DNA from: Eledone cirrhosa
Lineage: Eukaryota
DNA: 64,000 nucleotides
Assembly (NCBI GenBank): GCA_964016885.1
Contig: OZ024741.1
Location: 21,514,001 to 21,578,000, forward strand
Direction: 5' to 3'
Part shown: positions 1 through 33,937 of the stretch, one piece after another
Layout: every line of letters starts with the position of its first letter
How positions within the stretch are numbered: the stretch's first letter is position 1
Notes under the pieces: generated by a model
What the model was told of the DNA's origin: nothing
Seen by the model: the letters and a program-made list of their open reading frames with translations, nothing else
Database searches by the model: none
Made by a program: the position numbers and the translations under genes

Positions 1-3000
1 CTCAACCATGACACTTTATTACATTTTGTCTTCTCAACCATGATACTTTATTACATGTTGTGTTCTCAACCAAGACACTTTATTACATGTTGTGTTCTCA
101 ACCAAGACACTTTATTACATGTGTTTTCTACCAAGACACTTTACTACATGTTGCTTTCTCAACCATGACACTTTATTACATGTTATGTTCTCAACCAAGA
201 CACTTTGTTACATGTGTGCTCAAGCAAGACACTTTATTACATGTGTTCTCAACCAAGACACTTTATTACATGTTATGTTCTCAACCATGACACTTTACTA
301 CATGTGTTCTCAACCATGACACTTCATTACATTTTGTCTTCTCAACCATGATACTTTATTAGATGTTGTGTTCTCAACCATGACACTTTATTATATGTGT
401 TCTCAACCAAGACACTTTATTACGTGTTCTCAACCAAGACACTTTATTACATGTTATGTTCTCAACCAAGACAATTTATTACATGTGTTCTCAACCAAGA
501 CACTTTACTACATGTGTTTTCAACCATGACACTTTATTACATGTGTTCTCAACCAAGACACTTTATTACATGTTATGTTCTACACCATGACACTTTATTA
601 CATGTTGTGTTCTCAACCAAGACACTTTATTACATGTTGTGTTCTCAAGCAACACACTTTATTACATGTGTTCTCAACCAAGACACTTTATTACAAGTGT
701 TCTCAACCATGACACTTTATTACATGTGTTCTCAACTAATACACTTTATTACATGTTGTGTTCTCAACCAAGACACTTTATTACATGTGTTCTCAAGCAA
801 GACACTTCATTACATGTGTTCTCAAGCAAGACACTTTATTACATGTGTTCTCAAGCAAGACACTTTGTTACATGTGTTCTCAAGCAAGACACTTTATTAC
901 ATGTGTTCTCAACCAAGGCACTTTATTACATGTTGTGTTCTCAACCAAGACACTTTATTACATGTGTTCTCAAGCATGACACTTTACTACATGTTGTGTT
1001 CTCAATCATGACACTTTATTACATGTTATGTTCTCAACCAAGACACTTTATTACATGTGTTCTCAAGCAAGACACTTTATTACATGTTGTGTTCTCAACC
1101 AAGACACTTCATTACATGTTATGTTCTCAACCATGAGACTTTATTACATGTGTTCTCAACCATGACACTTTACTACATGTGTTATCAATCATGACACTTT
1201 ATTACATGTTGTTCTCAACCAAGACTCTTTATTACATGTTGTGTTCTCAACCAAGGCACTTTATTACATGTTATGTTCTCAACAAAGACATTTTATTACA
1301 TGTGTTCTCAACCAAGACACTTTATTACATGTTGTGTTGTCAACGAAGACACTTTATTACATGTGTTCTCAACCAAGACAATTTATTATATGTGTTCTCA
1401 ACCAAGACACTTTATTACATGTTATGTTCTCAACCAAGACACTTTATTACATGGGTTCTCAAGCAAGACACTTTATTACATGTTATGTTCTCAACCAAGG
1501 TACTTTAATACATGTGTTCTCAAGCAAGACACTTTGTTACATGTGTTCACAAGCAAGACACTTTATTACATGTGTTCTCAACCAAGGCACTTTATTACAT
1601 GTTGTGTTCTCAACCAAGACACTTTATTACATGTTGTGTTCTCAACCAAGACACTTTATTACATGTTATGTTCTCAACCAAGACACTTTATTACATGTGT
1701 TCTCAACCAAGACACTTTATTACATGTTGTGTTCTCAAGCAATACATTTATTACATGTGTTCTCAACCAAGACACTTTTTTACATGTTATGTTCTCAACC
1801 AAGACACTTTATTACATGTGTTCTCTACCAAGACACTTTACTACATGTTGTGTTCTCAACCATGACACTTTATTACATGTTATGTTCTCAACCAAGACAC
1901 TTCATTACATGTGTTCTCAAGCAAGACACTTTATTACATGTGTTCTCAACCAAGACTCTTTATTATATGTTATGTTCTCAACCATGACACTTTATTACAT
2001 GTGTTCTCAAGCATGACACTTTACTACATGTTGTGTTCTCAATCATGACACTTTATTACATGTTATGTTCTCAACCAAGACACTTTATTACATGTGTTCT
2101 CAAGCAAGACACTTTATTACATGTTGTGTTCTCAACCAAGACACTTCATTACATGTTATGTTCTCAACCATGACACTTTATTACATGTGTTCTCAACCAT
2201 GACACTTTACTACATGTGTTCTCAATCATGACACTTTATTACATGTTATGTTCTCAACCAAGACACTTTATTACATGTTGTGTTCTCAACCAAGACACTT
2301 TATTACATGTTATGTTCTCAACAAAGACATTTTATTACATGTGTTCTCAACCAAGACACTTTATTACATGTTGTGTTCTCAACCAAGACACTTTATTACA
2401 TGTGTTCTCGACCAAGACACTTTATTACATGTGTTCTCAACCAAGACACTTTATTACCTGTTGTGTTCTCAACCATGACACTTTATTACATGTTGTGTTC
2501 TCAACCAAGACACTTTATTACATGTTATGTTCTCAACCAAGACACTTTATTACATGTCTTCTCAAGCAAGACACTTTATTACATATGTTCTCAACCAAGA
2601 CACTTTATTACATGTTATGTTCTCAACCAAGACACTTTATTACATGTGTTCTTAACCAAGACACTTTATTACATGTGTTCTCAACCATGACACTTTATTA
2701 CATGTTGTGTTCTCAACCAAGACACTTTATTATATGGTGTGTTCTCAAACAAGACACTTTATTACATGTTGTGTTCTCAACCAAGCCACTTTATTACATG
2801 TTATGTTCTCAACCAAGACACTTTATTACATGTTATGTTCTCAACCATGACACTTTATTACATGTTGTGTTCTCAACCATGACACTTTATTACATGTTGT
2901 GTTCTCAACCATGACACTTTATTACATTTTGTCTTCTCAACCATGATACTTTATTACATGTTGTGTTCTCAACCAAGACACTTTATTACATGTTGTGTTC

Positions 3001-6000
3001 TCAACCAAGACACTTTATTACATGTTGTGTTTTCTACCAAGACACTTTACTACATGTTGCTTTCTCAACCATGACACTTTATTACATGTTATGTTCTCAA
3101 CCAAGGTATTTTAATACATGTGTTCTCAAGCAAGACACTTTGTTACATGTGTTCACAAGCAAGACACTTTATTACATGTGTTCTCAACCAAGGCACTTTA
3201 TTACATGTTGTGTTCTCAACCAAGACACTTTATTACATGTTGTGTTCTCAACCAAGACACTTTATTACATGTTATGTTCTCAACCAAGACACTTTATTAC
3301 ATGTGTTCTCAACCAAGACACTTTATTACATGTTGTGTTCTCAACCAAGACACTTTATTACATGTGTTCTCTACCAAGACACTTTACTACATGTTGTGTT
3401 CTCAACCATGACACTTTATTACATGTTATGTTCTCAACCAAGACACTTCATTACATGTGTTCTCAAGCAAGACACTTTATTACATGTGTTCTCAACCAAG
3501 ACTCTTTATTATATGTTATGTTCTCAACCATGACACTTTATTACATGTGTTCTCAAGCATGACACTTTACTACATGTTGTGTTCTCAATCATGACACTTT
3601 ATTACATGTTATGTTCTCAACCAAGACACTTTATTACATGTGTTCTCAAGCAAGACACTTTATTACATGTTGTGTTCTCAACCAAGACACTTCATTACAT
3701 GTTATGTTCTCAACCATGACACTTTATTACATGTGTTCTCAACCATGACACTTTACTACATGTGTTCTCAATCATGACACTTTATTACATGTTATGTTCT
3801 CAACCAAGACACTTTATTACATGTTGTGTTCTCAACCAAGACACTTTATTACATGTTATGTTCTCAACAAAGACATTTTATTACATGTGTTCTCAACCAA
3901 GACACTTTATTACATGTTGTGTTCTCAACCAAGACACTTTATTACATGTGTTCTCGACCAAGACACTTTATTACATGTGTTCTCAACCAAGACACTTTAT
4001 TACATGTTGTGTTCTCAACCATGACACTTTATTACATGTTGTGTTCTCAACCAAGACACTTTATTACATGTTATGTTCTCAACCAAGACACTTTATTACA
4101 TGTCTTCTCAAGCAAGACACTTTATTACATATGTTCTCAACCAAGACACTTTATTACATGTTATGTTCTCAACCAAGACACTTTATTACATGTGTTCTCA
4201 ACCAAGACACTTTATTACATGTGTTCTCAACCAAGCCACTTTATTACATGTTATTTTCTCAACCAAGACACTTTATTACATGTTATGTTCTCAACCATGA
4301 CACTTTATTACATGTTGTGTTCTCAACCAAGCCGCTTTATTACATGTTATGTTCTCAACCAAGACACTTTATTACATGTTATGTTCTCAACCATGACACT
4401 TTATTACATGTTGTGTTCTCAACCATGACACTTTATTACATGTTGTGTTCTCAACCATGACACTTTATTACATTTTGTCTTCTCAACCATGATACTTTAT
4501 TACATGTTGTGTTCTCAACCAAGACACTTTATTACATGTTGTGTTCTCAACCAAGACACTTTATTACATGTTGTGTTTTCTACCAAGACACTTTACTACA
4601 TGTTGCTTTCTCAACCATGACACTTTATTACATGTTATGTTCTCAACCAAGACACTTTGTTACATGTGTGCTCAAGCAAGACACTTTATTACATGTGTTC
4701 TCAACCAAGACACTTTATTACATGTTATGTTCTCAACCATGACACTTTACTACATGTTGTGTTCTCAACCATGACACTTCATTACATTTTGTCTTCTCAA
4801 CCATGATACTTTATTACATGTTGTGTTCTCAACCAAGACACTTTATTACATGTTATGTTCTCAACCATGACACTTTATTATATGTGTTCTCAACCAAGAC
4901 ACTTTATTACGTGTTCTCAACCAAGACACTTTATTACATGTTATGTTCTCAACCAAGACAATTTATTACATGTTGTGTTCTCAACCAAGACACTTTACTA
5001 CATGTGTTTTCAACCATGACACTTTATTACATGTGTTCTCAACCAAGACACTTTATTACATGTTATGTTCTACACCATGACATTTTATTACATGTTGTGT
5101 TCTCAACCAAGACACTTTATTACATGTTGTGTTCTCAAGCAACACACTTTATTACATGTGTTCTCAACCAAGACACTTTATTACAAGTGTTCTCAACCAT
5201 GACACTTTATTACATGTGTTCTCAACTAATACACTTTTTTACATGTTGTGTTCTCAACCAAGACACTTTATTACATGTGTTCTCAAGCAAGACACTTCAT
5301 TACATGTGTTCTCAAGCAAGACACTTTATTACATGTGTTCTCAAGCAAGACACTTTGTTACATGTGTTCTCAAGCAAGACACTTTATTACATGTGTTCTC
5401 AACCAAGGCACTTTATTACATGTTGTGTTCTCAACCAAGACACTTTATTACATGTGTTCTCAAGCATGACACTTTACTACATGTTGTGTTCTCAATCATG
5501 ACACTTTATTACATGTTATGTTCTCAACCAAGACACTTTATTACATGTGTTCTCAAGCAAGACACTTTATTACATGTTGTGTTCTCAACCAAGACACTTC
5601 ATTACATGTTATGTTCTCAACCATGAGACTTTATTACATGTGTTCTCAACCATGACACTTTACTACATGTGTTATCAATCATGACACTTTATTACATGTT
5701 ATGTTCTCAACCAAGACTCTTTATTACATGTTGTGTTCTCAACCAAGGCACTTTATTACATGTTATGTTCTCAACAAAGACATTTTATTACATGTGTTCT
5801 CAACCAAGACACTTTATTACATGTTGTGTTCTCAACGAAGACACTTTATTACATGTGTTCTCAACCAAGACAATTTATTACATGTGTTCTCAACCAAGAC
5901 ACTTTATTACATGTTATGTTCTCAACCAAGACACTTTATTACATGGGTTCTCAAGCAAGACACTTTATTACATGTTATGTTCTCAACCAAGGTACTTTAA

Positions 6001-9000
6001 TACATGTGTTCTCAAGCAAGACACTTTGTTACATCTGTTCACAAGCAAGACACTTTATTACATGTGTTCTCAACCAAGGCACTTTATTACATGTTGTGTT
6101 CTCAACCAAGACACTTTATTACATGTGTTCTCAACCAAGACACTTTATTACATGTTATGTTCTCAACCAAGACACTTTATTACATGTGTTCTCAACCAAG
6201 ACACTTTATTACATGTGTTCTCAACCAAGACACTTTATTACATGTTGTGTTCTCAAGCAATACATTTATTACATGTGTTCTCAACCAAGACACTTTTTTA
6301 CATGTTATGTTCTCAACCAAGACACTTTATTACATGTGTTCTCTACCAAGACACTTTACTACATGTTGTGTTCTCAACCATGACACTTTATTACGTTATG
6401 TTCTCAACCAAGACACTTCATTACATGTGTTCTCAAGCAAGACACTTTATTACATGTGTTCTCAACCAAGACTCTTTATTATATGTTATGTTCTCCACCA
6501 TGACACTTTCTTACATGTTATGTTCTCAACCAAGACACTTTATTACATGTGTTCTCAAGCAAGACACTTTATTACATGTTGTGTTCTCTACCAAGACACT
6601 TTACTACATGTTGCTTTCTCAACCATTACACTTTATTACATGTTATGTTCTCAACCAAGACACTTTGTTACATGTGTGCTCAAGCAAGACACTTTATTAC
6701 ATGTGTTCTCAACCAAGACACTTTATTACATGTTATGTTCTCAACCATGACACTTTACTACATGTTGTGTTCTCAACCATGACACTTCATTACATTTTGT
6801 CTTCTCAACCATGATACTTTATTACATGTTGTGTTCTCAACCAAGACACTTTATTACATGTTATGTTCTCAACCATGTCACTTTATTACATGTTGTGTTC
6901 TCAACCATGACACTTTATTACATGTTATGTTCTCAACCAAGACACTTTATTACATGTTATGTTCTCAACCAAGACACTTTATTACATGTTGTGTTCTCAA
7001 CCAAGACACTTTACTACATGTGTTTTCAACCATGACACTTTACTACATGTTGTGTTCTCAACCATGACACTTTATTACATGTGTTCTCAACCAAGACACT
7101 TTATTACATGTGTTCTCAACCAAGACACTTTATTACATGTTATGTTCTACACCATGACACTTTATTACATGTTGTGTTCTCAACCAAGACACTTTATTAC
7201 ATGTTGTGTTCTCAAGCAACACACTTTATTACATGTGTTCTCAACCAAGACACTTTATTACAAGTGTTCTCAACCATGACACTTTATTACATGTGTTCTC
7301 AACTAATACACTTTATTACATGTTGTGTTCTCAACCAAGACACTTTATTACATGTGTTCTCAAGCAAGACACTTCATTACATGTGTTCTCAAGCAAGACA
7401 CTTCATTACATGTGTTCTCAAGCAAGACACTTTATTACATGTGTTCTCAAGCAAGACACTTTGTTACATGTGTTCTCAAGCAAGACACTTTATTACATGT
7501 GTTCTCAACCAAGGCACTTTATTACATGTTGTGTTCTCAACCAAGACACTTTATTACATGTGTTCTCAAGCATGACACTTTACTACATGTTGTGTTCTCA
7601 ATCATGACACTTTATTACATGTTATGTTCTCAACCAAGACACTTTATTACATGTGTTCTCAAGCAAGACACTTTATTACATGTTGTGTTCTCAACCAAGA
7701 CACTTCATTACATGTTATGTTCTCAACCATGAGACTTTATTACATGTGTTCTCAACCATGACACTTTACTACATGTTGTGTTATCAATCATGACACTTTA
7801 TTACATGTTATGTTCTCAACCAAGACTCTTTATTACATGTTGTGTTCTCAACCAAGGCACTTTATTACATGTTATGTTCTCAACAAAGACATTTTATTAC
7901 ATGTGTTCTCAACCAAGACACTTTGTTACATGTTGTGTTCTCAACGAAGACACTTTATTACATGTGTTCTCAACCAAGACAATTTATTACATGTGTTCTC
8001 AACCAAGACACTTTATTACATGTTATGTTCTCAACCAAGACACTTTATTACATGGGTTCTCAAGCAAGACACTTTATTACATGTTATGTTCTCAACCAAG
8101 GTACTTTAATACATGTGTTCTCAAGCAAGACACTTTGTTACATCTGTTCACAAGCAAGACACTTTATTACATGTGTTCTCAACCAAGGCACTTTATTACA
8201 TGTTGTGTTCTCAACCAAGACACCTTATTACATGTTTTGTTCTCAACCAAGACACTTTATTACATGTTATGTTCTCAACCAAGACACTTTATTACATGTG
8301 TTCTCAACCAAGACACTTTATTACATGTTGTGTTCACAAGCAATACATTTATTACATGTGTTCTCAACCAAGACACTTTTTTACATGTTATGTTCTCAAC
8401 CAAGACACTTTATTACATGTGTTCTCTACCAAGACACTTTACTACATGTTGTGTTCTCAACCATGACACTTTATTACATGTTATATTCTCAACCAAGACA
8501 CTTTATTACATGTGTTCTCAAGCAAGACACTTTATTACATGTTGTGTTCTCAACCAAGACACTTCATTACATGTTATGTTCTCAACCATGACACTTTATT
8601 ACATGTGTTCTCAACCATGACACTTTACTACATGTGTTCTCAATCATGACACTTTATTACATGTTGTGTTCTCAACCAAGACACTTTATTACATGTTATG
8701 TTCTCAACAAAGACATTTTATTACATGTGTTCTCAACCAAGACACTTTATTACATGTTGTGTTCTCAACCAAGACACTTTATTACATGTGTTCTCAACCA
8801 AGACACTTTATTACATGTTATGTTCTCAACCAAGACACTTTATTACATGTGTTCTCAACCAAGACACTTTATTACATGTTGTGTTCTCAACCATGACACT
8901 TTATTACATGTTGTGTTCTCAACCAAGACACTTTATTACATGTTATGTTCTCAACCAAGACACTTTATTACATGTCTTCTCAAGCAAGACACTTTATTAC

Positions 9001-12000
9001 ATATGTTCTCAACCAAGACACTTTATTACATGTTATGTTCTCAACCAAGACACTTTATTACATGTCTTCTCAACCAAGACACTTTATTACATGCGTTCTC
9101 AACCATGACACTTTATTACATGTTATGTTCTCAACCATGTCACTTTATTACATGTTGTGTTCTCAACCAAGGCACTTTATTACATGTTATGTTCTCAACA
9201 AAGACATTTTATTACATGTGTTCTCAACCAAGACACTTTATTACATGTTGTGTTCTCAACCAAGACACTTTATTACATGTGTTCTCAACCAAGACACTTT
9301 ATTACATGTGTTCTCAAGCAAGACACTTTATTACATGTGTTCTCAACCATGACACTTTATTACATGTTGTGTTCTCAACCAAGACTCTTTATTATATGTT
9401 ATGTTCTCAACCATGACACTTTATTACATGTGTTCTCAAGCATGACACTTTACTACATGTTGTGTTCTCAATCATGACACTTTATTACATGTTATGTTCT
9501 CAACCAAGACACTTTATTACATGTGTTCTCAAGCAAGACACTTTATTACATGTGTTCTCAACCAAGACACTTCATTACATGTTATGTTCTCAACCATGAC
9601 ACTTTATTACATGTGTTCTCAACCATGACACTTTACTACATGTTGTGTTATCAATCATGACACTTTATTACATGTTATGTTCTCAACCAAGACTCTTTAT
9701 TACATGTTGTGTTCTCAACCAAGACACTTTATTACATGTTATGTTCTCAACAAAGACATTTTATTACATGTGTTCTCAACAAAGACACTTTATTACATGT
9801 TGTGTTCTCAACCAAGACTCTTTATTACATGTGTTCTCAACCAAGACACTTTATTACATGTGTTCTCAACCAAGACACTTTATTACATGTTGTGTTCTCA
9901 ACCATGACACTTTATTACATGTTGTGTTCTCAACCAAGACACTTTATTACATGTTATATTCTCAACCAAGACACTTTATTACATGTCTTCTCAAGCAATA
10001 CATTTATTACATGTGTTCTCAACCAAGACACTTTTTTACATGTTATGTTCTCAACCAAGACACTTTATTACATGTGTTCTCTACCAAGACACTTTACTAC
10101 ATGTTGTGTTCTCAACCATGACACTTTATTACATGTTATGTTCTCAACCAAGACACTTCATTACATGTGTTCTCAAGCAAGACACTTTATTACATGTGTT
10201 CTCAACCAAGACTCTTTATTATATGTTATGTTCTCAACCATGACACTTTATTACATGTGTTCTCAAGCATGACACTTTACTACATGTTGTGTTCTCAATC
10301 ATGACACTTTATTACATGTTATGTTCTCAACCAAGACACTTTATTACATGTGTTCTCAAGCAAGACACTTTATTACATGTTGTGTTCTCAACCAAGACAC
10401 TTCATTACATGTTATGTTCTCAACCATGACACTTTATTACATGTGTTCTCAACCATGACACTTTACTACATGTGTTCTCAATCATGACACTTTATTACAT
10501 GTTATGTTCTCAACCAAGACACTTTATTACATGTTGTGTTCTCAACCAAGACACTTTATTACATGTTATGTTCTCAACAAAGACATTTTATTACATGTGT
10601 TCTCAACCAAGACACTTTATTACATGTTGTGTTCTCAACCAAGACACTTTATTACATGTGTTCTCGACCAAGACACTTTATTACATGTGTTCTCAACCAA
10701 GACACTTTATTACATGTTGTGTTCTCAACCATGACACTTTATTACATGTTGTGTTCTCAACCAAGACACTTTATTACATGTTATGTTCTCAACCAAGACA
10801 CTTTATTACATGTCTTCTCAAGCAAGACACTTTATTACATATGTTCTCAACCAAGACACTTTATTACATGTTATGTTCTCAACCAAGACATTTTATTACA
10901 TGTGTTCTCAACCAAGACACTTTATTACATGTGTTCTCAACCATGACACTTTATTACATGTTATTTTCTCAACCAAGCCACTTTATTACATGGTGTGTTC
11001 TCAAACAAGACACTTTATTACATGTTGTGTTCTCAACCAAGCCGCTTTATTACATGTTATGTTCTCAACCAAGACACTTTATTACATGTTATGTTCTCAA
11101 CCATGACACTTTATTACATGTTGTGTTCTCAACCATGACACTTTATTACATGTTGTGTTCTCAACCATGACACTTTATTACATTTTGTCTTCTCAACCAT
11201 GATACTTTATTACATGTTGTGTTCTCAACCAAGACACTTTATTACATGTTGTGTTCTCAACCAAGACACTTTATTACATGTTGTGTTTTCTACCAAGACA
11301 CTTTACTACATGTTGCTTTCTCAACCATGACACTTTATTACATGTTATGTTCTCAACCAAGACACTTTGTTACATGTGTGCTCAAGCAAGACACTTTATT
11401 ACATGTGTTCTCAACCAAGACACTTTATTACATGTTATGTTCTCAACCATGACACTTTACTACATGTTGTGTTCTCAACCATGACACTTCATTACATTTT
11501 GTCTTCTCAACCATGATACTTTATTACATGTTGTGTTCTCAACCAAGACACTTTATTACATGTTATGTTCTCAACCATGACACTTTATTATATGTGTTCT
11601 CAACCAAGACACTTTATTACGTGTTCTCAACCAAGACACTTTATTACATGTTATGTTCTCAACCAAGACAATTTATTACATGTTGTGTTCTCAACCAAGA
11701 CACTTTACTACATGTGTTTTCAACCATGACACTTTATTACATGTGTTCTCAACCAAGACACTTTATTACATGTTATGTTCTACACCATGACATTTTATTA
11801 CATGTTGTGTTCTCAACCAAGACACTTTATTACATGTTGTGTTCTCAAGCAACACACTTTATTACATGTGTTCTCAACCAAGACACTTTATTACAAGTGT
11901 TCTCAACCATGACACTTTATTACATGTGTTCTCAACTAATACACTTTATTACATGTTGTGTTCTCAACCAAGACACTTTATTACATGTGTTCTCAAGCAA

Positions 12001-15000
12001 GACACTTCATTACATGTGTTCTCAAGCAAGACACTTTATTACATGTGTTTTCAACCATGACACTTTACTACATGTTGTGTTCTCAACCATGACACTTTAT
12101 TACATGTGTTCTCAACCAAGACACTTTATTACATGTGTTCTCAACCAAGACACTTTATTACATGTTATGTTCTACACCATGACACTTTATTACATGTTGT
12201 GTTCTCAACCAAGACACTTTATTACATGTTGTGTTCTCAAGCAACACACTTTATTACATGTGTTCTCAACCAAGACACTTTATTACAAGTGTTCTCAACC
12301 ATGACACTTTATTACATGTGTTCTCAACTAATACACTTTATTACATGTTGTGTTCTCAACCAAGACACTTTATTACATGTGTTCTCAAGCAAGACACTTC
12401 ATTACATGTGTTCTCAAGCAAGACACTTCATTACATGTGTTCTCAAGCAAGACACTTTATTACATGTGTTCTCAAGCAAGACACTTTGTTACATGTGTTC
12501 TCAAGCAAGACACTTTATTACATGTGTTCTCAACGAAGGCACTTTATTACATGTGTTCTCAACCAAGACACTTTATTACATGTGTTCTCAAGCATGACAC
12601 TTTACTACATGTTGTGTTCTCAATCATGACACTTTATTACATGTTATGTTCTCAACCAAGACACTTTATTACATGTGTTCTCAAGCAAGACACTTTATTA
12701 CATGTTGTGTTCTCAACCAAGACACTTCATTACATGTTATGTTCTCAACCATGAGACTTTATTACATGTGTTCTCAACCATGACACTTTACTACATGTTG
12801 TGTTATCAATCATGACACTTTATTACATGTTATGTTCTCAACCAAGACTCTTTATTACATGTTGTGTTCTCAACCAAGGCACTTTATTACATGTTATGTT
12901 CTCAACAAAGACACTTTATTACATGTTGTGTTCTCAACGAAGACACTTTATTACATGTGTTCTCAACCAAGACAATTTATTACATGTGTTCTCAACCAAG
13001 ACACTTTATTACATGTTATGTTCTCAACCAAGACACTTTGTTACATCTGTTCACAAGCAAGACACTTTATTACATGTGTTCTCAACCAAGGCACTTTATT
13101 ACATGTTGTGTTCTCAACCAAGACACTTTATTACATGTTGTGTTCTCAACCAAGACACTTTATTACATGTTATGTTCTCAACCAAGACACTTTATTACAT
13201 GTGTTCTCAACCAAGACACTTTATTACATGTTGTGTTCTCAAGCAATACATTTATTACATGTGTTCTCAAGCAAGACACTTTTTTAGATGTTATGTTCTC
13301 AACCAAGACACTTTATTACATGTGTTCTCTACCAAGACACTTTACTACATGTTGTGTTCTCAACCATGACACTTTATTACATGTTATGTTCTCAACCAAG
13401 ACACTTCATTACATGTGTTCTCAAGCAAGACACTTTATTACATGTGTTCTCAACCAAGACTCTTTATTATATGTTATGTTCTCAACCATGACACTTTATT
13501 ACATGTGTTCTCAAGCATGACACTTTACTACATGTTGTGTTCTCAATCATGACACTTTATTACATGTTATGTTCTCAACCAAGACACTTTATTACATGTG
13601 TTCTCAAGCAAGACACTTTATTACATGTTGTGTTCTCAACCAAGACACTTCATTACATGTTATGTTCTCAACCATGACACTTTATTACATGTGTTCTCAA
13701 CCATGACACTTTACTACATGTGTTCTCAATCATGACACTTTATTACATGTTATGTTCTCAACCAAGACACTTTATTACATGTTGTGTTCTCAACCAAGAC
13801 ACTTTATTACATGTTATGTTCTCAACAAAGACATTTTATTACATGTGTTCTCAACCAAGACACTTTATTACATGTTGTGTTCTCAACCAAGACACTTTAT
13901 TACATGTGTTCTCGACCAAGACACTTTATTACATGTGTTCTCAACCAAGACACTTTATTACATGTTGTGTTCTCAACCATGACACTTTATTACATGTTGT
14001 GTTCTCAACCAAGACACTTTATTACATGTTATGTTCTCAACCAAGACACTTTATTACATGTCTTCTCAAGCAAGACACTTTATTACATATGTTCTCAACC
14101 AAGACACTTTATTACATGTTATGTTCTCAACCAAGACACTTTATTACATGTGTTCTCAAGCAAGACACTTTATTACATGTGTTCTCAACCATGACACTTT
14201 ATTACATGTTATTTTCTCAACCAAGCCACTTTATTACATGGTGTGTTCTCAAACAAGACACTTTATTACATGTTGTGTTCTCAACCAAGCCGCTTTATTA
14301 CATGTTATGTTCTCAACCAAGACACTTTATTACATGTTATGTTCTCAACCATGACACTTTATTACATGTTGTGTTCTCAACCATGACACTTTATTACATG
14401 TTGTGTTCTCAACCATGACACTTTATTACATTTTGTCTTCTCAACCATGATACTTTATTACATGTTGTGTTCTCAACCAAGACACTTTATTACATGTTGT
14501 GTTCTCAACCAAGACACTTTATTACATGTTGTGTTTTCTACCAAGACACTTTACTACATGTTGCTTTCTCAACCATGACACTTTATTACATGTTATGTTC
14601 TCAACCAAGACACTTTGTTACATGTGTGCTCAAGCAAGACACTTTATTACATGTGTTCTCAACCAAGACACTTTATTACATGTTATGTTCTCAACCATGA
14701 CACTTTACTACATGTTGTGTTCTCAACCATGACACTTCATTACATTTTGTCTTCTCAACCATGATACTTTATTACATGTTGTGTTCTCAACCAAGACACT
14801 TTATTACATGTTATGTTCTCAACCATGACACTTTATTATATGTGTTCTCAACCAAGACACTTTATTACGTGTTCTCAACCAAGACACTTTATTACATGTT
14901 ATGTTCTCAACCAAGACAATTTATTACATGTTGTGTTCTCAACCAAGACACTTTACTACATGTGTTTTCAACCATGACACTTTATTACATGTGTTCTCAA

Positions 15001-18000
15001 CCAAGACACTTTATTACATGTTATGTTCTACACCATGACATTTTATTACATGTTGTGTTCTCAACCAAGACACTTTATTACATGTTGTGTTCTCAAGCAA
15101 CACACTTTATTACATGTGTTCTCAACCAAGACACTTTATTACAAGTGTTCTCAACCATGACACTTTATTACATGTGTTCTCAACTAATACACTTTATTAC
15201 ATGTTGTGTTCTCAACCAAGACACTTTATTACATGTGTTCTCAAGCAAGACACTTCATTACATGTGTTCTCAAGCAAGACACTTTATTACATGTGTTCTC
15301 AAGCAAGACACTTTGTTACATGTGTTCTCAAGCAAGACACTTTATTACATGTGTTCTCAACCAAGGCACTTTATTACATGTTGTGTTCTCAACCAAGACA
15401 CTTTATTACATGTGTTCTCAAGCATGACACTTTACTACATGTTGTGTTCTCAATCATGACACTTTATTACATGTTATGTTCTCAACCAAGACACTTTATT
15501 ACATGTGTTCTCAAGCAAGACACTTTATTACATGTTGTGTTCTCAACCAAGACACTTCATTACATGTTATGTTCTCAACCATGAGACTTTATTACATGTG
15601 TTCTCAACCATGACACTTTACTACATGTGTTATCAATCATGACACTTTATTACATGTTATGTTCTCAACCAAGACTCTTTATTACATGTTGTGTTCTCAA
15701 CCAAGGCACTTTATTACATGTTATGTTCTCAACAAAGACATTTTATTACATGTGTTCTCAACCAAGACACTTTATTACATGTTGTGTTCTCAACGAAGAC
15801 ACTTTATTACATGTGTTCTCAACCAAGACAATTTATTACATGTGTTCTCAACCAAGACACTTTATTACATGTTATGTTCTCAACCAAGACACTTTATTAC
15901 ATGGGTTCTCAAGCAAGACACTTTATTACATGTTATGTTCTCAACCAAGGTACTTTAATACATGTGTTCTCAAGCAAGACACTTTGTTACATCTGTTCAC
16001 AAGCAAGACACTTTATTACATGTGTTCTCAACCAAGGCACTTTATTACATGTTGTGTTCTCAACCAAGACACTTTATTACATGTGTTCTCAACCAAGACA
16101 CTTTATTACATGTTATGTTCTCAACCAAGACACTTTATTACATGTGTTCTCAACCAAGACACTTTATTACATGTGTTCTCAACCAAGACACTTTATTACA
16201 TGTTGTGTTCTCAAGCAATACATTTATTACATGTGTTCTCAACCAAGACACTTTTTTACATGTTATGTTCTCAACCAAGACACTTTATTACATGTGTTCT
16301 CTACCAAGACACTTTACTACATGTTGTGTTCTCAACCATGACACTTTATTACGTTATGTTCTCAACCAAGACACTTCATTACATGTGTTCTCAAGCAAGA
16401 CACTTTATTACATGTGTTCTCAACCAAGACTCTTTATTATATGTTATGTTCTCCACCATGACACTTTCTTACATGTTATGTTCTCAACCAAGACACTTTA
16501 TTACATGTGTTCTCAAGCAAGACACTTTATTACATGTTGTGTTCTCTACCAAGACACTTTACTACATGTTGCTTTCTCAACCATTACACTTTATTACATG
16601 TTATGTTCTCAACCAAGACACTTTGTTACATGTGTGCTCAAGCAAGACACTTTATTACATGTGTTCTCAACCAAGACACTTTATTACATGTTATGTTCTC
16701 AACCATGACACTTTACTACATGTTGTGTTCTCAACCATGACACTTCATTACATTTTGTCTTCTCAACCATGATACTTTATTACATGTTGTGTTCTCAACC
16801 AAGACACTTTATTACATGTTATGTTCTCAACCATGTCACTTTATTACATGTTGTGTTCTCAACCATGACACTTTATTACATGTTATGTTCTCAACCAAGA
16901 CACTTTATTACATGTTATGTTCTCAACCAAGACACTTTATTACATGTTGTGTTCTCAACCAAGACACTTTACTACATGTGTTTTCAACCATGACACTTTA
17001 CTACATGTTGTGTTCTCAACCATGACACTTTATTACATGTGTTCTCAACCAAGACACTTTATTACATGTGTTCTCAACCAAGACACTTTATTACATGTTA
17101 TGTTCTACACCATGACACTTTATTACATGTTGTGTTCTCAACCAAGACACTTTATTACATGTTGTGTTCTCAAGCAACACACTTTATTACATGTGTTCTC
17201 AACCAAGACACTTTATTACAAGTGTTCTCAACCATGACACTTTATTACATGTGTTCTCAACTAATACACTTTATTACATGTTGTGTTCTCAACCAAGACA
17301 CTTTATTACATGTGTTCTCAAGCAAGACACTTCATTACATGTGTTCTCAAGCAAGACACTTCATTACATGTGTTCTCAAGCAAGACACTTTATTACATGT
17401 GTTCTCAAGCAAGACACTTTGTTACATGTGTTCTCAAGCAAGACACTTTATTACATGTGTTCTCAACCAAGGCACTTTATTACATGTTGTGTTCTCAACC
17501 AAGACACTTTATTACATGTGTTCTCAAGCATGACACTTTACTACATGTTGTGTTCTCAATCATGACACTTTATTACATGTTATGTTCTCAACCAAGACAC
17601 TTTATTACATGTGTTCTCAAGCAAGACACTTTATTACATGTTGTGTTCTCAACCAAGACACTTCATTACATGTTATGTTCTCAACCATGAGACTTTATTA
17701 CATGTGTTCTCAACCATGACACTTTACTACATGTTGTGTTATCAATCATGACACTTTATTACATGTTATGTTCTCAACCAAGACTCTTTATTACATGTTG
17801 TGTTCTCAACCAAGGCACTTTATTACATGTTATGTTCTCAACAAAGACATTTTATTACATGTGTTCTCAACCAAGACACTTTGTTACATGTTGTGTTCTC
17901 AACGAAGACACTTTATTACATGTGTTCTCAACCAAGACAATTTATTACATGTGTTCTCAACCAAGACACTTTATTACATGTTATGTTCTCAACCAAGACA

Positions 18001-21000
18001 CTTTATTACATGGGTTCTCAAGCAAGACACTTTATTACATGTTATGTTCTCAACCAAGGTACTTTAATACATGTGTTCTCAAGCAAGACACTTTGTTACA
18101 TCTGTTCACAAGCAAGACACTTTATTACATGTGTTCTCAACCAAGGCACTTTATTACATGTTGTGTTCTCAACCAAGACACTTTATTACATGTTTTGTTC
18201 TCAACCAAGACACTTTATTACATGTTATGTTCTCAACCAAGACACTTTATTACATGTGTTCTCAACCAAGACACTTTATTACATGTTGTGTTCACAAGCA
18301 ATACATTTATTACATGTGTTCTCAACCAAGACACTTTTTTACATGTTATGTTCTCAACCAAGACACTTTATTACATGTGTTCTCTACCAAGACACTTTAC
18401 TACATGTTGTGTTCTCAACCATGACACTTTATTACATGTTATATTCTCAACCAAGACACTTTATTACATGTGTTCTCAAGCAAGACACTTTATTACATGT
18501 TGTGTTCTCAACCAAGACACTTCATTACATGTTATGTTCTCAACCATGACACTTTATTACATGTGTTCTCAACCATGACACTTTACTACATGTGTTCTCA
18601 ATCATGACACTTTATTACATGTTGTGTTCTCAACCAAGACACTTTATTACATGTTATGTTCTCAACAAAGACATTTTATTACATGTGTTCTCAACCAAGA
18701 CACTTTATTACATGTTGTGTTCTCAACCAAGACACTTTATTACATGTGTTCTCAACCAAGACACTTTATTACATGTTATGTTCTCAACCAAGACACTTTA
18801 TTACATGTGTTCTCAACCAAGACACTTTATTACATGTTGTGTTCTCAACCATGACACTTTATTACATGTTGTGTTCTCAACCAAGACACTTTATTACATG
18901 TTATGTTCTCAACCAAGACACTTTATTACATGTCTTCTCAAGCAAGACACTTTATTACATATGTTCTCAACCAAGACACTTTATTACATGTTATGTTCTC
19001 AACCAAGACACTTTATTACATGTCTTCTCAACCAAGACACTTTATTACATGCGTTCTCAACCATGACACTTTATTACATGTTATGTTCTCAACCATGTCA
19101 CTTTATTACATGTTGTGTTCTCAACCAAGGCACTTTATTACATGTTATGTTCTCAACAAAGACATTTTATTACATGTGTTCTCAACCAAGACACTTTATT
19201 ACATGTTGTGTTCTCAACCAAGACACTTTATTACATGTGTTCTCAACCAAGACACTTTATTACATGTGTTCTCAAGCAAGACACTTTATTACATGTGTTC
19301 TCAACCATGACACTTTATTACATGTTGTGTTCTCAACCAAGACTCTTTATTATATGTTATGTTCTCAACCATGACACTTTATTACATGTGTTCTCAAGCA
19401 TGACACTTTACTACATGTTGTGTTCTCAATCATGACACTTTATTACATGTTATGTTCTCAACCAAGACACTTTATTACATGTGTTCTCAAGCAAGACACT
19501 TTATTACATGTGTTCTCAACCAAGACACTTCATTACATGTTATGTTCTCAACCATGACACTTTATTACATGTGTTCTCAACCATGACACTTTACTACATG
19601 TTGTGTTATCAATCATGACACTTTATTACATGTTATGTTCTCAACCAAGACTCCTTATTACATGTTGTGTTCTCAACCAAGACACTTTATTACATGTTAT
19701 GTTCTCAACAAAGACATTTTATTACATGTGTTCTCAACAAAGACACTTTATTACATGTTGTGTTCTCAACCAAGACTCTTTATTACATGTGTTCTCAACC
19801 AAGACACTTTATTACATGTGTTCTCAACCAAGACACTTTATTACATGTTGTGTTCTCAACCATGACACTTTATTACATGTTGTGTTCTCAACCAAGACAC
19901 TTTATTACATGTTATATTCTCAACCAAGACACTTTATTACATGTCTTCTCAAGCAATACATTTATTACATGTGTTCTCAACCAAGACACTTTTTTACATG
20001 TTATGTTCTCAACCAAGACACTTTATTACATGTGTTCTCTACCAAGACACTTTACTACATGTTGTGTTCTCAACCATGACACTTTATTACATGTTATGTT
20101 CTCAACCAAGACACTTCATTACATGTGTTCTCAAGCAAGACACTTTATTACATGTGTTCTCAACCAAGACTCTTTATTATATGTTATGTTCTCAACCATG
20201 ACACTTTATTACATGTGTTCTCAAGCATGACACTTTACTACATGTTGTGTTCTCAATCATGACACTTTATTACATGTTATGTTCTCAACCAAGGCACTTT
20301 ATTACATGTGTTCTCAAGCAAGACACTTTATTACATGTTGTGTTCTCAACCAAGACACTTCATTACATGTTATGTTCTCAACCATGACACTTTATTACAT
20401 GTGTTCTCAACCATGACACTTTACTACATGTGTTCTCAATCATGACACTTTATTACATGTTATGTTCTCAACCAAGACACTTTATTACATGTGTTCTCAA
20501 CCAAGACACTTTATTACATGTGTTCTCAACCAAGACACTTTATTACATGTTGTGTTCTCAACCATGACACTTTATTACATGTTGTGTTCTCAACCAAGAC
20601 ACTTTATTACATGTTGTGTTCTCAACCAAGACACTTTATTACATGTTATGTTCTCAACAAAGACATTTTATTACATGTGTTCTCAACCAAGACACTTTAT
20701 TACATGTTGTGTTCTCAACCAAGACACTTTATTACATGTGTTCTCAACCAAGACACTTTATTACATGTGTTCTCAACCAAGACACTTTATTACATGTTGT
20801 GTTCTCAACCATGACACTTTATTACATGTTGTGTTCTCAACCAAGACACTTTATTACATGTTGTGTTCTCAACCAAGACACTTTATTACATGTTGTGTTC
20901 TCAACCAAGACACTTTATTACATGTCTTCTCAAGCAAGACACTTTATTACATATGTTCTCAACCAAGACACTTTATTACATGTTATGTTCTCAACCAAGA

Positions 21001-23756
21001 CACTTTATTACATGTGTTCTCAACCAAGACGCTTTATTACATGCGTTCTCAACCATGACACTTTATTACATGTTATGTTCTCAACCATGACACTTTATTA
21101 CATGTTATGTTCTCAACCAAGACACTTTATTACATGTGTTCTCAACCAAGACACTTTATTACATGTTATGTTCTCAACCAAGACACTTTATTGCATGTTG
21201 TGTTCTCAACCATGACACTTTATTACATGTTATTTTCTCAACCAAGCCACTTTATTACATGTTATGTTCTCAACCATGACACTTTATTACATGTTGTGTT
21301 CTCAACCATGACACTTTATTACATGTTGTGTTCTCAACCATGACACTTTGTTACATTTTGTCTTCTCAACCATGATACTTTATTACATGTTGTGTTCTCA
21401 ACCAAGACACTTTATTACATGTTGTGCTCTCAACCAAGACACTTTATTACATGTTGTGTTCTCTACCAAGACACTTTATTACATGTTATGTTCTCAACCA
21501 TGACACTTTATTACATGTGTTCACAACCATGACACTTTATTACATGTGTTCTCAACCAAGACACTTTATTACGTGTTCTCAACCAAGACACTTTATTACA
21601 TGTTACGTTCTCAACCAAGACAATTTATTACATGTTGTGTTCTCAACCAAGACACTTTACTACATGTTGTGTTTTCAACCATGACACTTTACTACATGTT
21701 GTGTTCTCAACCATGACACATTATTACATGTTGTGTTCTCAACCATGACACTTTATTACATCTTGTGTTCTCAACCAAGACACTTTATTACATGTGTTCT
21801 CAACCAAGACACTTTATTACATGTTATGTTCTCAACCACCACACTTTATTACATGTGTTCTCAAGCAAGACACTTTATTACATGTGTTCTCATGCAAGAC
21901 ACTTTATTACATGTTATGTTCTCAACCATGACACTTTATTACATGTTATTTTCTCAACCATGACACTTTATTACTTGTTGTGTTGTCAACCAAGACACTT
22001 TATTACATGTTGTGTTCTCAAGCAAAACACTTTATTACATGTTGTGTTCTCAAGCAAGACACTTTATTACATGTGTTCTCAAGCAAGACACTTTATTACA
22101 TGTGTTCTCAAGCAAGACACTTTATTACATGTTGTGTTCTCAACCAAGACACTTTACTACATGTGTTCTCAACCAAGACACTTTATTACAAGTGTTCTCA
22201 ACCATGACACTTTATTATATGTGTTCTCAAGCAAGACACTTTATTACATGTTATGTTCTCAACCATGACACATTATTACATGTTATGTTCTCAACCATGA
22301 CACTTTATTACATGTTGTGTTCTCAACCAAGACACTTTATTACATGTTGTGTTCTCAAGCAAGACACTTTATTACATGTGTTCTCAAGCAAGACACTTTA
22401 TTACATGTGTTCTCAAGCAAGACACTTTATTACATGTTGTGTTCTCAACCAAGACACTTTACTACATGTGTTCTCAACCAAGACACTTTATTACAAGTGT
22501 TCTCAACCATGACACTTTATTACAAGTGTTCTCAACCCTGACACTTTATTACATGTGTTCTCAACTAATACACTTTATTACATGTTGTGTTCTCAACCAA
22601 GACACTTTATTACATGTTGTGTTCTCTACCAAGACACTTTACTACATGTTGTATTCTCAACCATGACACTTTACTAGATGTGTTCTCAACCAAGACACTT
22701 TATTACATGTTACGTTCTCAACCATGACACTTTACTACATGTTGTGTTCCCAAACAAGACACTTTATTACATGTGTTCTCAACCAAGACACTTTATTACA
22801 TGTTATGTTCTCAACCAAGACACTTTATTACATGTGTTCTCAAGCAAGACACTTTATTACACGTTGTGTTCTCGAGCAAGACGCTTTATTACATGTTATG
22901 TTCTAAACCAAGACAATTTATTACATGTTGTGTTCTCAACCAAGACACTTTACTACATGTGTTCTGAACCAAGACACTTTATTACATGTTATGTTCTCAA
23001 CCATGACACTTTATTACATGTGTTCACAACCATGACACTTTATTACATGTGTTCTCAAACAAGACACTTTATTACATGTTGTGTTCTCAAGCAAGACACT
23101 TTATTACATGTGTTCTCAAGCAAGACACTTTATTATATGTTGTGTTCTCAACCAAGACACTTTATTACATTTTATGTTCTCAACCCCGACACATTATTAC
23201 ATGTGTTCTCAACCAAGACACTTTATTACATGTTTTCTCAACCAAGACACTTTATTACATGTTGTGTTCTCAAGCAAGACACTTTATTACATGTGTTCGC
23301 AACCAAGACACTTTACTACATGTTGTGTTCTCAAGCAAGACACTTTATTACATGTTATGTTCTCAACCAAGACACTTTATTACATGTGTTCTCAACCAAG
23401 ACACTTTATTACATGTGTTCTCAACCAAGTCACTTTATTACATGTTGTGTTCTCAAGCAAGACACTTTATTACATGTGTTCTCAACCAAGACACTTTACT
23501 ACATGTGTTCTCAACCAAGACACTTTATTACATGTTATGTTCTCAACCAAGACACTTTATTACATGTTATATTCTCAACCAAGACACTTTATTACATGTT
23601 ATGTTCTCAACCAAGACACTTTATTACATGTTGTGTTCTCAACCATGACACTTTACTACATGTGTTCTCAAACAAGACACTTTATTACATGTTGTGTTCT
23701 CAAACAAGACACTTTATTACATGTGTTCTCAAACAAGACACTTTATTACATGTGTT
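1..23756. repeat. Large satellite array of mixed 29- and 32-bp monomers, consensus TGTTCTCAACCAAGACACTTTATTACATG with or without TTG/TTA; extends beyond the window start
   Basis: Continuous tandem monomers with recurrent variants (AAGC, CATG, AATC). Identical ORF-track blocks recur at fixed offsets such as 9958 bp. The array ends about 40 bp before a NOC3L splice acceptor. Confidence 0.99.
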
Positions 23757-23798
23757 TATTTATTAATAGTTCTTTGTTTGTTTGTTATTTTCATGTAG

Positions 23799-23871
23799 AT
23801 TTGCTCATTTTGTTAATATTGATTACTTTGAGGACCTTTTCAACACCCTGAAAAGTATGATTGCAAGTGAG
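23799..23871 (+). CDS. NOC3L: NOC3L homolog internal exon (FAHFVNIDYFEDLFNTLKSMIASE); upstream exons lie outside the window
   Basis: tgtag acceptor after a T-rich tract and GAG/gtgagt donor. The peptide matches the recalled NOC3L CBF-domain segment FAHLINVEFFDDL. Confidence 0.9.
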
Positions 23872-25125: not shown

Positions 25126-25211
25126 TTAAGATATCATTAAGTCATAAACATGTCTATGCTAGCTATTTGATATTTTGAATGTTAATATTTGTAAATGTTT
25201 GTCTTTTTCAG

Positions 25212-25347
25212 AAATTGACCTTGCAACAGACTATGCAGTGTACTCTAACAGCTTTCATGATACTTTCTGGACAAGGAAATGTTTTAAACATTGATCCAGT
25301 ACATTTTTACAAATATTTCTACCACAGAATTACATCTTTAAGTGCAG
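25212..25347 (+). CDS. NOC3L: NOC3L exon (KLTLQQTMQCTLTAFMILSGQGNVLNIDPVHFYKYFYHRITSLSA)
   Basis: tttttcag acceptor and CAG/gtaaaa donor. Carries the conserved TAFxILSGQGxVLNIDP motif and is in phase with its neighbours. Confidence 0.95.
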
Positions 25348-25711: not shown

Positions 25712-26377
25712 TCTTAGCATTTTTCAGCAAGACCTTTGTCCACCGCTCTCCAGCCATCTATTTAAAGCTGTATATAGCTATGGTGCAGCCACACTTAGAA
25801 TTTGCATCATCAGTCTGGAACCCCTATCTTGTTCAGAACATTGACCGCCTGGAAACTGTTCAGGGACGTGCAACCAAGCGAATACCCTCCATCAGGTATC
25901 TACCATACTCTGAACGCCTTGCTTCCCTGGGCATGGATATATTGAAGCTCCGACGTCTGGCAACTGACTTGGTAAACACCCACAAAATTATTAACCATCT
26001 TACCAACAACAACACTGAGTACCTTTTTGCTTTCCATGTGTCTAACACACGTGGACATGCCAACCAAGTCAGAAAACAGCACAGCTCCCATGACTTTCAA
26101 AAACATTTTTTCACGCTCAGAGTTGCTGAAGCATGGAACAAACTACCTGCGTCAGTTGTTAGCTGTCGAAACACTGCATCCTTTAAAACCTCCATGCTTC
26201 CTGAGATTCGCCAACACCACACCTGATATTCCCCCTCCATACTCATGCACAGATGTATATCATGACTCATACACTAATCACTTCCCTGACATTTGTATAT
26301 TATTCTATGTACTATACATGCACCTTTGATGAGTTGTAGTGCACCTGAGCACTGTACACAATAATTTCATTATTATT
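25712..26377 (+). mobile_element. 5'-truncated CR1-group LINE: ORF2 C-terminus, 3' UTR and (ATT)n tail
   Basis: LY..MVQPHLEFASSVWNP, LETVQGRATK, YSERL, TRGH and FFTLRVAEAWNKLP are CR1 C-terminal motifs. Confidence 0.92.
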
Positions 26378-26565
26378 GGCAGTATCGGTAGAGGGTCGGA
26401 CGCCATGTTTTGCAGCAAAGAGTTACGACCCTTTATGGTCTGAGTTCAAATCCCGCTGAGGTTTACTTTGCCTTTCATCCTTACGGGGTCGATAAAATAA
26501 AGTACCAGTAATACACTGGTGAATTGCTGGCCTTGTGCCAAAAGTAGAAGCAATTATTATTATTA
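26378..26565 (+). mobile_element. tRNA-derived SINE, family A (the most abundant family here, at least 15 full or partial copies)
   Basis: B-box-like GAGTTCAAATCCC, core CTTTGCCTTTCATCC..GGGGTCGATAAAATAAAGTACCAGT and an ATT tail. Other copies at ~28255-28420(-), 32975-33500(-, three), 40620-40820, 42060-42200, 42663-42865, 48250-48452, 51772-51960 and 59560-59690. Confidence 0.9.
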
Positions 26566-27237
26566 AAATTGCCCCCCTCATCACACTGTTATATTAGTGC
26601 CACAATAAAATGCACCCAGTTTGCACTGTAAGATAGTAGTAGTGTTTGTGCCATGATAAGAAGCACTCAATACATCCTGTAAGGTGGTAGTGTTGGTGCC
26701 ACAACAAAAAGCACCCAATACACCCCCCAAAAAACAGCCAGATTGCTCTGTAAAGTGTGTCAGCATCACAATAAAATGTTCCCAGTACATGCTGTAAAGT
26801 GGTTGGCATTAGAAAGGACATCCAGCCATAGAAACCAAACCAAACCAAAAATGGAGTGTACAAGGAAGATATGATCTCTTGACCTGTTGAGCCTTAATAC
26901 ATGACAGCCCACCTAACCCCTGCAAAGATGGAAAATTGATGTTAAATTGTGATAACAATGATAATGACACTTTAATGTGAATAGGGAGCCTTTAAAATAG
27001 AATTAGGGGCAGGTTGATACCAAAAGGGTTAAATGTGTTGGTTTTTATGAAAATATTTTACCTTGTGGGTTGGTTGTCATTGTTTTATATAGGGACCCTT
27101 TAAAATAGAACTAGGGGTTGGTTGGTGAGGATATCTGTTTGACCTTGTGGGTTGGTTGTCATTGTTTTATATAGGGACCTTTTAAAATAGAAAGAGACAC
27201 TGACGCGCCATGCCCCCCCCCCCCCCCCCCCCCCCAA

Positions 27238-27388
27238 AGGTGAAAGTGCATGGTTTAGTGGTTAGAGCATTGGGCTTGCAATCGAAAGGTTGTGAATTCA
27301 ATTCTCAGACCGGGTGATGTGTTGTTTCCTTGAGCAAGACACTTTATTTCACGTTGCTCCAGTTTACTCAGCTGTAGAAATGAGATGA
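27238..27388 (+). mobile_element. tRNA-derived SINE, family B, with a CORE-like segment
   Basis: A-box-like TGGTTTAGTGG, B-box-like GAATTCAATTC, and CCTTGAGCAAGACACTT resembling the CORE domain. Other copies (-) at 27812-27965, ~34745-34890, 52720-52856 and 59300-59522. Confidence 0.88.

Positions 27389-33872: not shown

Positions 33873-33937
<65 letters not shown>

What the first reader, a model, noticed from the sequence alone, without database searches (positions are those of the whole stretch)
1..27356. The giant satellite monomer is a 32-bp slice of a CORE-like SINE, bounded by a GTTG microhomology
Seen: the satellite variant GTTGTGTTCTCAAGCAAGACACTTTATTACATGTTG aligns without gaps to SINE B at 27321-27356 (GTTGTTTCCTTGAGCAAGACACTTTATTTCACGTTG). 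The match is 30/36 with 16 consecutive identities, and the copy at 59411-59445(-) is at least as close. In the SINE, GTTG recurs exactly 32 bp apart, which equals the long monomer length. Inference: slippage or recombination between these two GTTGs seeded an array of more than 23 kb, and the 29-mer arose by loss of a triplet. TE-derived satellites are known in general, but here the source, boundaries and mechanism can all be read locally.
Basis: partly seen in the sequence, partly recalled or inferred. Interest (0 to 1): 0.75.

Follow-up and report, generated by a model that had tools for sequence, protein, structure and literature searches.

The report
SINE core grown into giant satellite
A 48,000-base run of 29- and 32-base repeats fills almost a whole intron of the NOC3L gene and matches a slice from the conserved middle of a common short jumping element, whose front end still sits at the array's edge; it likely grew in place after the slice was copied twice between two short matching ends, and the same slice is repeated in tandem at dozens of other places in this genome.

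Summary
Real, larger than reported, and of a known kind. The array is 48,265 bp (1,573 units), 98% of a NOC3L intron, and unique to this locus. Its consensus matches the CORE domain of an old tRNA-type SINE family at 26/32 (2,000 shuffles: at most 22). A SINE B-box remnant lies at its 5' edge, 24.5 kb upstream of the window (16/20 in fixed register, p about 2e-5); no tail survives. Corrections: the quoted 36-mer does not occur in the array; the 27.3-kb copy belongs to a younger family and is not the parent; the flanking repeat is CGTTG (6 of 7 bases). New here: the same slice is amplified at 11 of 20 junction-bearing loci, the reciprocal 32-bp deletion exists (4 of 4 family-2 deletions), and a control stretch of the same SINE gave 2 loci. 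A 45-bp register is commoner and has only 1 bp of microhomology, so microhomology is not required. Mechanism and class are published (Alu minisatellites, squamate SINE-derived satellites). This scan earlier noted analogous LINE-slice satellites elsewhere in this genome; two sequence look-ups found no note on this SINE slice.

The parts
1..23753 (+). 3' half of the 48,265-bp array of 32- and 29-bp units (whole array G000:C2:21489489-21537753); unit = slice of SINE CORE domain with six fixed changes
22860..22880 (+). Relic junction keeping three SINE-state bases in a row (unit positions 28, 8, 10); position 28 is kept at 3 places and position 8 at 1 place in the whole array
23754..23798 (+). 3' edge: T-rich intron end, no SINE tail (best 13/25 to the expected tail within 1.4 kb); array ends 45 bp before the splice acceptor
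23799..23871 (+). NOC3L exon downstream of the array (open frame between AG and GT; gene identity from neighbouring exons)
25211..25347 (+). NOC3L exon matching residues 550-591 of human NOC3L, E 4.5e-9
27244..27410 (+).
27787..27957 (-). Second family-1 copy, inverted relative to the first
34748..34897 (-). Family-4 copy sharing the CORE, different tail
52728..52779 (-). Family-2 fragment
59299..59522 (-). Family-2 copy, the type whose linker length fits the array's 5' edge; slice identical to the family consensus

Best explanation
The array fills 98% of a NOC3L intron, its unit matches a 32-bp slice of a SINE's CORE domain, and it likely grew in place from one old SINE copy after a slip between two CGTTG repeats 32 bp apart duplicated that slice. 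Shown: sequence match, B-box remnant at the 5' edge, locus-specific derived unit, multi-kilobase block duplications inside the array, the same duplication and its reciprocal deletion at other copies. Inferred: (1) an older family-2 (or family-3) copy inserted in sense in the intron; (2) misalignment at C[G/A]CGTTG duplicated 32 bp, probably early, while the CpG-rich repeat was intact; (3) point changes fixed, two of them by CpG decay; (4) one TGT was lost at the junction to give the 29-mer; (5) unequal exchanges of 2.5-10 kb blocks enlarged the array; (6) the tail and most of the head were lost. No function is indicated; it is best read as tolerated intron growth.
For: 26/32 to family-2 consensus, shuffles at most 22 of 32 in 2,000. 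Edge: 16/20 to the head in exact family-2 register; 14 of 799,962 random positions score as high. All 752 genome-wide matches of the derived motif lie in this array. Relic junction with three SINE-state bases. Period 32 has the longest direct repeat (5 bp; 6 of 7) among periods 25-52. 11 of 20 loci with a duplication junction of period 25-42 have period 32, control pattern 0 (loci counted by me). Many keep head and tail around the units, e.g. L070, L074, L118, L122. 4 of 4 family-2 deletion alleles remove exactly these 32 bp; of the other 16, 5 do so and 5 join at another GTTG. Control stretch in the 3' body of family 2, both anchors exact in 8 of 30 copies: 2 loci. Identical runs up to 119 units at lags of 2.5, 6.8 and 10 kb. 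Intron 49,079 bp, NOC3L.
Against: No SINE tail at the 3' edge and only about 20 bp of head. The 10 bases before the first unit fit a unit end better (9/10 with the position-25 change, by eye) than the family-2 linker (5/10), so the exact register may be partly secondary and the parent could be family 3, whose CORE has the same T at position 4. 45-bp arrays give 4,269 junction matches against 93 with 1 bp of microhomology. The position-25 T>A change is shared with 10 other arrays though uncommon in dispersed copies, which independent in-place origin does not predict. Independence of loci is assumed, not shown. No orthologous locus was seen.
Confidence: 0.8

Rival explanations
1. The first repeats were made at the RNA-to-DNA step: reverse transcriptase slipped, perhaps repeatedly, in the CORE during insertion, or a master copy with an internal repeat was retrotransposed. 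Later growth was in place. This differs from the best explanation only in when and how the seed formed.
For: 20 of 25 short arrays (25 units or fewer) have at most 1 majority difference from the family consensus over 29 nt while their units differ from one another, whereas dispersed family-2 copies average 2.0 differences over 18 unselected nt: most duplications are about as old as their copies. None of the 11 period-32 loci is a clean two-unit copy. The fixed 45-bp junction lacks microhomology. The slice holds a 5-bp-stem hairpin. Template switching at conserved SINE domains is proposed in PMC5804259 (passages).
Against: A single master predicts many two-unit copies and one head/tail type; 45-type arrays occur with family-2 and with family-3 tails (assigned by eye). 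Some arrays are late expansions of aged copies (L069: 5 fixed changes, 0.35 within-array differences). Early timing also follows if DNA slippage needs the intact CpG-rich repeat. The hairpin is weak (-3.3 kcal/mol; 55 of 290 windows of the SINE are more stable). This array is too homogenised to date its seed.
Confidence: 0.3
2. The units came from, or were converted by, another array of the same slice (for example a 45-bp array losing 13 bp between two TG), landing in a resident SINE copy by ectopic recombination, as described for Rsp-like in Drosophila.
For: L076 (45-mer, other end of C2) shares the position-25 and position-28 changes with this array; L076 and the C449 array share positions 8 and 25 but have different family tails. 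Position-25 T>A in 11 of 33 arrays against position-23 T>A in 1 of 33, while dispersed copies on C1 show 4 against 11 (chosen after seeing the data). The bases before the first unit look like a unit end. PMC7403614 (abstract only).
Against: No 45-mer spacer sequence anywhere in the array (0 matches); the derived motif occurs nowhere else; position 28 is a CpG site changed in 14 of 33 arrays; the position-25 change completes a 4-bp stem across the unit junction, so it could recur by template switching in any array (inference from the sequence).
Confidence: 0.12
3. Chance resemblance, an assembly artefact, or the SINE took the sequence from the satellite.
For: Long identical runs inside the array could include assembly duplications, so the exact length is uncertain.
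Against: Shuffle test; 32,865 exact 35-mers of the unduplicated CORE genome-wide; the CORE matches a scallop CORE-SINE at 45/54 (by eye against PMC4824008 supplement), so it long predates a one-locus array; short-read contigs run from the array into the 3' flank without differences (table 8; probably the assembly's own sample, so a check of the junction only).
Confidence: 0.02

Closest known systems
SINE-derived satellites (sSat1-3) of squamates, Vassetzky, Kosushkin and Ryskov 2023, PMC10702118 (parts 1-4 of 5 of the text read)
   Same: Tandem arrays of an internal SINE slice, with SINE head and/or tail left at an edge, few to over 1,000 units, longer arrays more uniform, many loci per genome, alternating subvariants.
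   Different: Units here are 28-45 bp against about 70-290 nt; the slice lies in the CORE domain shared by four families; this array has 1,573 units against a reported maximum of over 1,200; that paper invokes unequal recombination between SINE copies, and in the parts read it does not analyse flanking microhomology or reciprocal deletions (term count 0).
Alu-derived minisatellites (Jurka and Gentles 2006) and the Haber and Louis 1998 model; neither read, both cited from passages of PMC3389668 and PMC6947457
   Same: A SINE segment flanked by 5-10 bp direct repeats is duplicated by slippage or unequal crossing-over, then expanded; unit size in the minisatellite range.
   Different: Array length here is satellite-scale (48 kb); invertebrate CORE SINE; a second, commoner register has no such direct repeat (PMC3389668 likewise finds most TE-derived repeats unexplained by the two models).
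CORE-SINE superfamily: BivaCORE-SINE2 of scallops, and octopus OR elements listed as CORE-SINEs (PMC4824008 passages and supplement rows; PMC5804259 passages)
   Same: tRNA-type head followed by a central domain 45/54 identical to BivaCORE-SINE2; several families share the domain with different tails.
   Different: Identity with OR1/OR2 itself not tested (no sequence available); the tandem amplification of the domain was not found in the listings searched.
Rsp-like spread into 1.688 arrays in Drosophila, PMC7403614 (abstract only)
   Same: Model for the rival: microhomology-aided movement of units between loci and intralocus growth by unequal exchange of higher-order blocks.
   Different: There one satellite invades another; here most arrays sit inside a SINE with matching head and tail.

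Membership tests
SINE-derived satellite (sSat type) | Unit is a slice of a SINE, shorter than the SINE | tested here: met
   26/32 to the 322-nt family-2 consensus, shuffles at most 22
SINE-derived satellite (sSat type) | Head-to-tail array with at least four middle units | tested here: met
   1,573 units
SINE-derived satellite (sSat type) | Terminal unit extends into the SINE on one side | tested here: met
   5' B-box remnant 16/20 in register, p about 2e-5; no 3' tail. The head does not reach the SINE's 5' end.
SINE-derived satellite (sSat type) | Subtelomeric bias of long arrays | tested here: inconclusive
   This array at 21.5 of 416 Mb; other long ones at C2:7.6, 412.7, 415.0 Mb and C3:31 of 379 Mb, but also C18:17.8 of 44 Mb; sample not random
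Direct-repeat-seeded minisatellite (Haber-Louis / Alu type) | Unit flanked in the source by a 5-10 bp direct repeat | tested here: met
   CGTTG, 6 of 7 with the next two bases, best of periods 25-52; not met for the 45-bp arrays
Direct-repeat-seeded minisatellite (Haber-Louis / Alu type) | Seed formed by DNA slippage or unequal crossing-over | not testable with these tools
   Reciprocal deletions fit but reverse-transcriptase slippage gives the same products
CORE-SINE (source element) | Central domain homologous to CORE | tested here: met
   45/54 by eye against the BivaCORE-SINE2 row of the PMC4824008 supplement; the original CORE paper was not held
CORE-SINE (source element) | tRNA-derived head | tested here: met
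   Rfam tRNA match on the family-1 head, 31.2 bits (gathering 29) in L002 and 26.5 in L003; none of 5 family-2 copies reached E 1; ARAGORN 0 of 6. A- and B-box labels are recalled motifs.
CORE-SINE (source element) | 3' tail shared with a partner LINE; target-site duplications | not tested
   Tails differ between families; partner not sought
Dispersed satellite family (library type) | Same derived unit at several loci | tested here: not met
   752 of 752 matches in this one array

The most novel reading that the evidence does not exclude
The CORE domain itself is a slippage and template-switch hot spot: it seeds multi-unit arrays in two fixed registers (32 and 45 bp) at or soon after insertion, in several SINE families, and the new junction then templates the same point change in independent arrays. 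That would be direct genomic evidence for the untested idea that conserved SINE domains persist because they promote recombination, and a graded series from two units to 48 kb in one genome.
Probability: 0.3. Interest if true: 0.7.

Novelty: new member of a known kind. Interest (0 to 1): 0.45.

Why it matters
As a single locus it is a clear worked example of a published route from SINE to satellite. Its added value is the population around it: both products of the slip (duplication and exact deletion), arrays from 2 to 1,573 units with SINE ends still attached, and a matched control stretch that is rarely duplicated. Why CORE and similar domains are conserved across animal phyla is called a major enigma in PMC5804259, with recombination hot spot as one undemonstrated hypothesis; this genome offers a countable test. 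It also shows how an intron of a housekeeping gene can grow from about 0.8 kb to 49 kb, with the array ending 45 bp from the splice acceptor.

Tried and rejected
Local 27.3-kb copy as parent: rejected (family 1). A box upstream of the B-box remnant: rejected; that stretch reads as an open frame on the minus strand resembling the end of an RTE-type LINE ORF (label recalled, not tested), and matches the SINE head poorly. SINE tail downstream: none. Strong hairpin as the cause: weak support only. G>A at unit position 32 as a compensatory change: dropped, the same change is common in dispersed copies (6 of 26). Control at a 7-bp repeat 42 bp apart in the family-2 tail: 0 matches but both anchors are exact in only 1 of 30 copies, so inconclusive; replaced. 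Longer microhomology favouring arrays: A at the fifth linker base in 7 of 10 family-2 32-type arrays against 29 of 100 plain copies (by-eye counts; Fisher p 0.013), but in-register contraction could cause it afterwards. Orthologue check: the run search listed one organism only; no RNA holder listed. Contig depths were not used as copy number; the RAD run did not cover the junction. Pfam on 7 exons: CBF in 2 of 7. Left out of the 33-array table: the C5 31-bp array (L080, L230; relation unclear), L130 (no array seen), and two-unit or partial loci L116, L119, L120, L124, L127. Literature searches listed no paper on CORE-derived satellites in cephalopods or on junction-templated changes in arrays; listings only, subscription journals mostly absent.
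Full report
Observation. The window begins inside a tandem array that ends at 23753. Its units are 32 or 29 bp. The window is G000:C2:21514001-21578000; 80 kb of upstream sequence shows the array starting at C2:21489489, so it is 48,265 bp with 1,573 units, 888 long and 652 short. It lies in a 49,079-bp intron between exons of NOC3L: three exons tested match human NOC3L in order (residues 492-522, E 0.034; 550-591, E 4.5e-9; 656-696, E 2.2e-12).

The source element. In 400 kb of evenly spaced genome samples (40 stretches) a profile found 24 copies; one exact 35-mer of the central domain occurs 32,865 times genome-wide (some in arrays). At least four families share this domain and differ in head linker and tail (my numbering). 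Family 1 is young and includes the copy at 27244; family 2 (consensus from the first 30 of 333 pattern matches) has a 10-nt CpG-rich linker and includes the copy at 59299-59522(-). The domain is 45/54 identical, by eye, to scallop BivaCORE-SINE2 (PMC4824008 supplement rows), and a family-1 head passes Rfam's tRNA threshold, so 'CORE SINE' is justified. Earlier scan notes call the organism an octopus; I did not test that.

Derivation. The array consensus is 26/32 to the family-2 slice and 25/32 to the 27.3-kb copy; 2,000 shuffles never exceeded 22. Six changes are in the majority of units. One junction at window 22860-22880 keeps three SINE-state bases together, including the CpG intermediate that explains two adjacent changes. 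The 29-mer lacks one TGT of a doublet formed at the junction. All 752 genome-wide matches of the derived motif are in this array. Inside, identical runs of up to 119 units recur at 2.5, 6.8 and 10 kb, and variant frequencies are flat along the array, the pattern expected from recent large unequal exchanges (inference; some may be assembly duplication).

Edges. Twenty bases ending 10 nt before the first unit match the family-2 head at 16/20 without gaps; 14 of 799,962 random positions do as well. Against a simple reading: the intervening 10 nt match the linker at only 5/10 and look like a unit end, and position 4 has the family-3 base, so the parent is family 2 or 3; family 1 does not fit. Further upstream is a LINE-like fragment on the minus strand (RTE label recalled). 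No tail is found at the 3' edge. Short-read contigs cross the 3' junction as assembled, and one run shows a second form of that junction (table 7), suggesting the array end differs between haplotypes.

Microhomology. In the family-2 consensus the slice is flanked by CGTTG, with 6 of 7 bases matching; no other period from 25 to 52 has more than 4. A junction search covering periods 25-42 gave 93 matches at 20 loci, control 0; 11 loci have period 32 (binomial p 1.6e-9 if loci are independent and periods equally likely). Fetched loci often show head, units and tail in order. A deletion search gave 20 alleles: all 4 with family-2 tails lack exactly the 32 bp; of 16 others, 5 lack the equivalent 32 bp, 5 join at another GTTG, 6 are other (classed by eye). 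A control stretch of family 2 with similar detectability gave 2 loci. Against sufficiency and necessity: a search for periods 35-52 gave 4,269 matches, of which the first 100 were listed, nearly all at period 45, where the consensus offers 1 bp; they occur with family-2 and family-3 tails. The core is also shared by more copies than the control stretch, which inflates the contrast by an unmeasured factor.

Timing and parallel change. Across 33 arrays (non-random), 20 of the 25 short ones have at most one majority difference from the family consensus although their units have diverged, so most seeds are about as old as their host copies. This fits slippage while the CpG-rich repeat was intact, or slippage during reverse transcription; these tools cannot separate them. 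T>A at unit position 25, fixed here, is present in 11 of 33 arrays against 1 of 33 for T>A at position 23, whereas dispersed copies on C1 show 4 against 11 (post hoc, p about 0.001-0.004). It completes a 4-bp stem across the unit junction, which exists only in arrays; exchange between arrays is the alternative. Unresolved.

Comparison with what is known. It works like Alu-derived minisatellites seeded at short direct repeats (passages of PMC3389668 and PMC6947457; the primary papers were not read) and meets the tested features of squamate SINE-derived satellites (PMC10702118, parts 1-4 of 5). Tandem SINE structures in bivalve introns are whole elements (PMC11481361, passages). Passages of PMC13282606 and PMC4758252 did not mention such arrays. 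Six literature searches listed nothing on CORE-derived arrays in cephalopods; supplements of these papers, other than part of one, were not seen and could list such repeats. The scan's own notes describe LINE-slice and ribozyme satellites elsewhere in this genome but none like this sequence.

Verdict. Class and mechanism are published, so this is a new member of a known kind; the genome-wide recurrence in the CORE, with reciprocal deletions, lifts it to moderate interest (0.45).

Noticed in passing
G000:C2:21434004-21487697 (L063-L068), upstream of the window: A second giant array, 30-bp GGT-rich unit, over 53 kb and still running at the end of what was fetched, lies about 0.9 kb before the upstream NOC3L exon, probably in the previous intron.
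   Followed up: no
window 28607-30969: A 48-bp array (49 copies) in another NOC3L intron matches the 49-bp internal repeats of an interspersed element at 41159-41362, 27620-27785 and 49484-49765; an earlier scan note ascribes a 48-bp unit to a LINE 3' UTR.
   Followed up: partly
G000:C2:412.69-412.75 Mb, C2:7.55 Mb, C449:10-33 kb, C18:17.82 Mb, C21:8.45 Mb (L129, L226, L223, L078, L079, L073, L229, L123): Long 45- and 43-bp arrays of the same CORE slice, the commonest form in the genome, with an almost invariant junction and little microhomology.
   Followed up: partly
G000:C3:31151519-31172817 (L071, L072): A 21-kb 32-bp array of the same slice, close to the SINE consensus, with family-2 tail and no head.
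   Followed up: partly
window 27244-27410(+) and 27787-27957(-): Two young family-1 copies face each other as an inverted pair 380 bp apart inside a NOC3L intron; the pre-mRNA could form a duplex.
   Followed up: no
L074:1165-1891 and L078:4875-5793: 61-bp arrays at two loci whose unit resembles window 26133-26195, the end of a LINE-like fragment: another recurrently amplified slice.
   Followed up: no
L076:1-10000 (C2:414.95 Mb): Three different arrays (59, 45 and 44 bp) lie side by side, the first two abutting directly.
   Followed up: no
window 55802-59223, 53023-55725, 46606-48248: Further arrays: a 55-bp unit (63 copies) and two ACC-rich degenerate repeats.
   Followed up: no
window 33311-33899 and 51372-51960: A 589-bp inverted duplication at 99.5% identity.
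   Followed up: no
L231 (C4:74416937): A rare three-unit repeat of about 42 bp in the 3' body of a family-2 SINE.
   Followed up: partly
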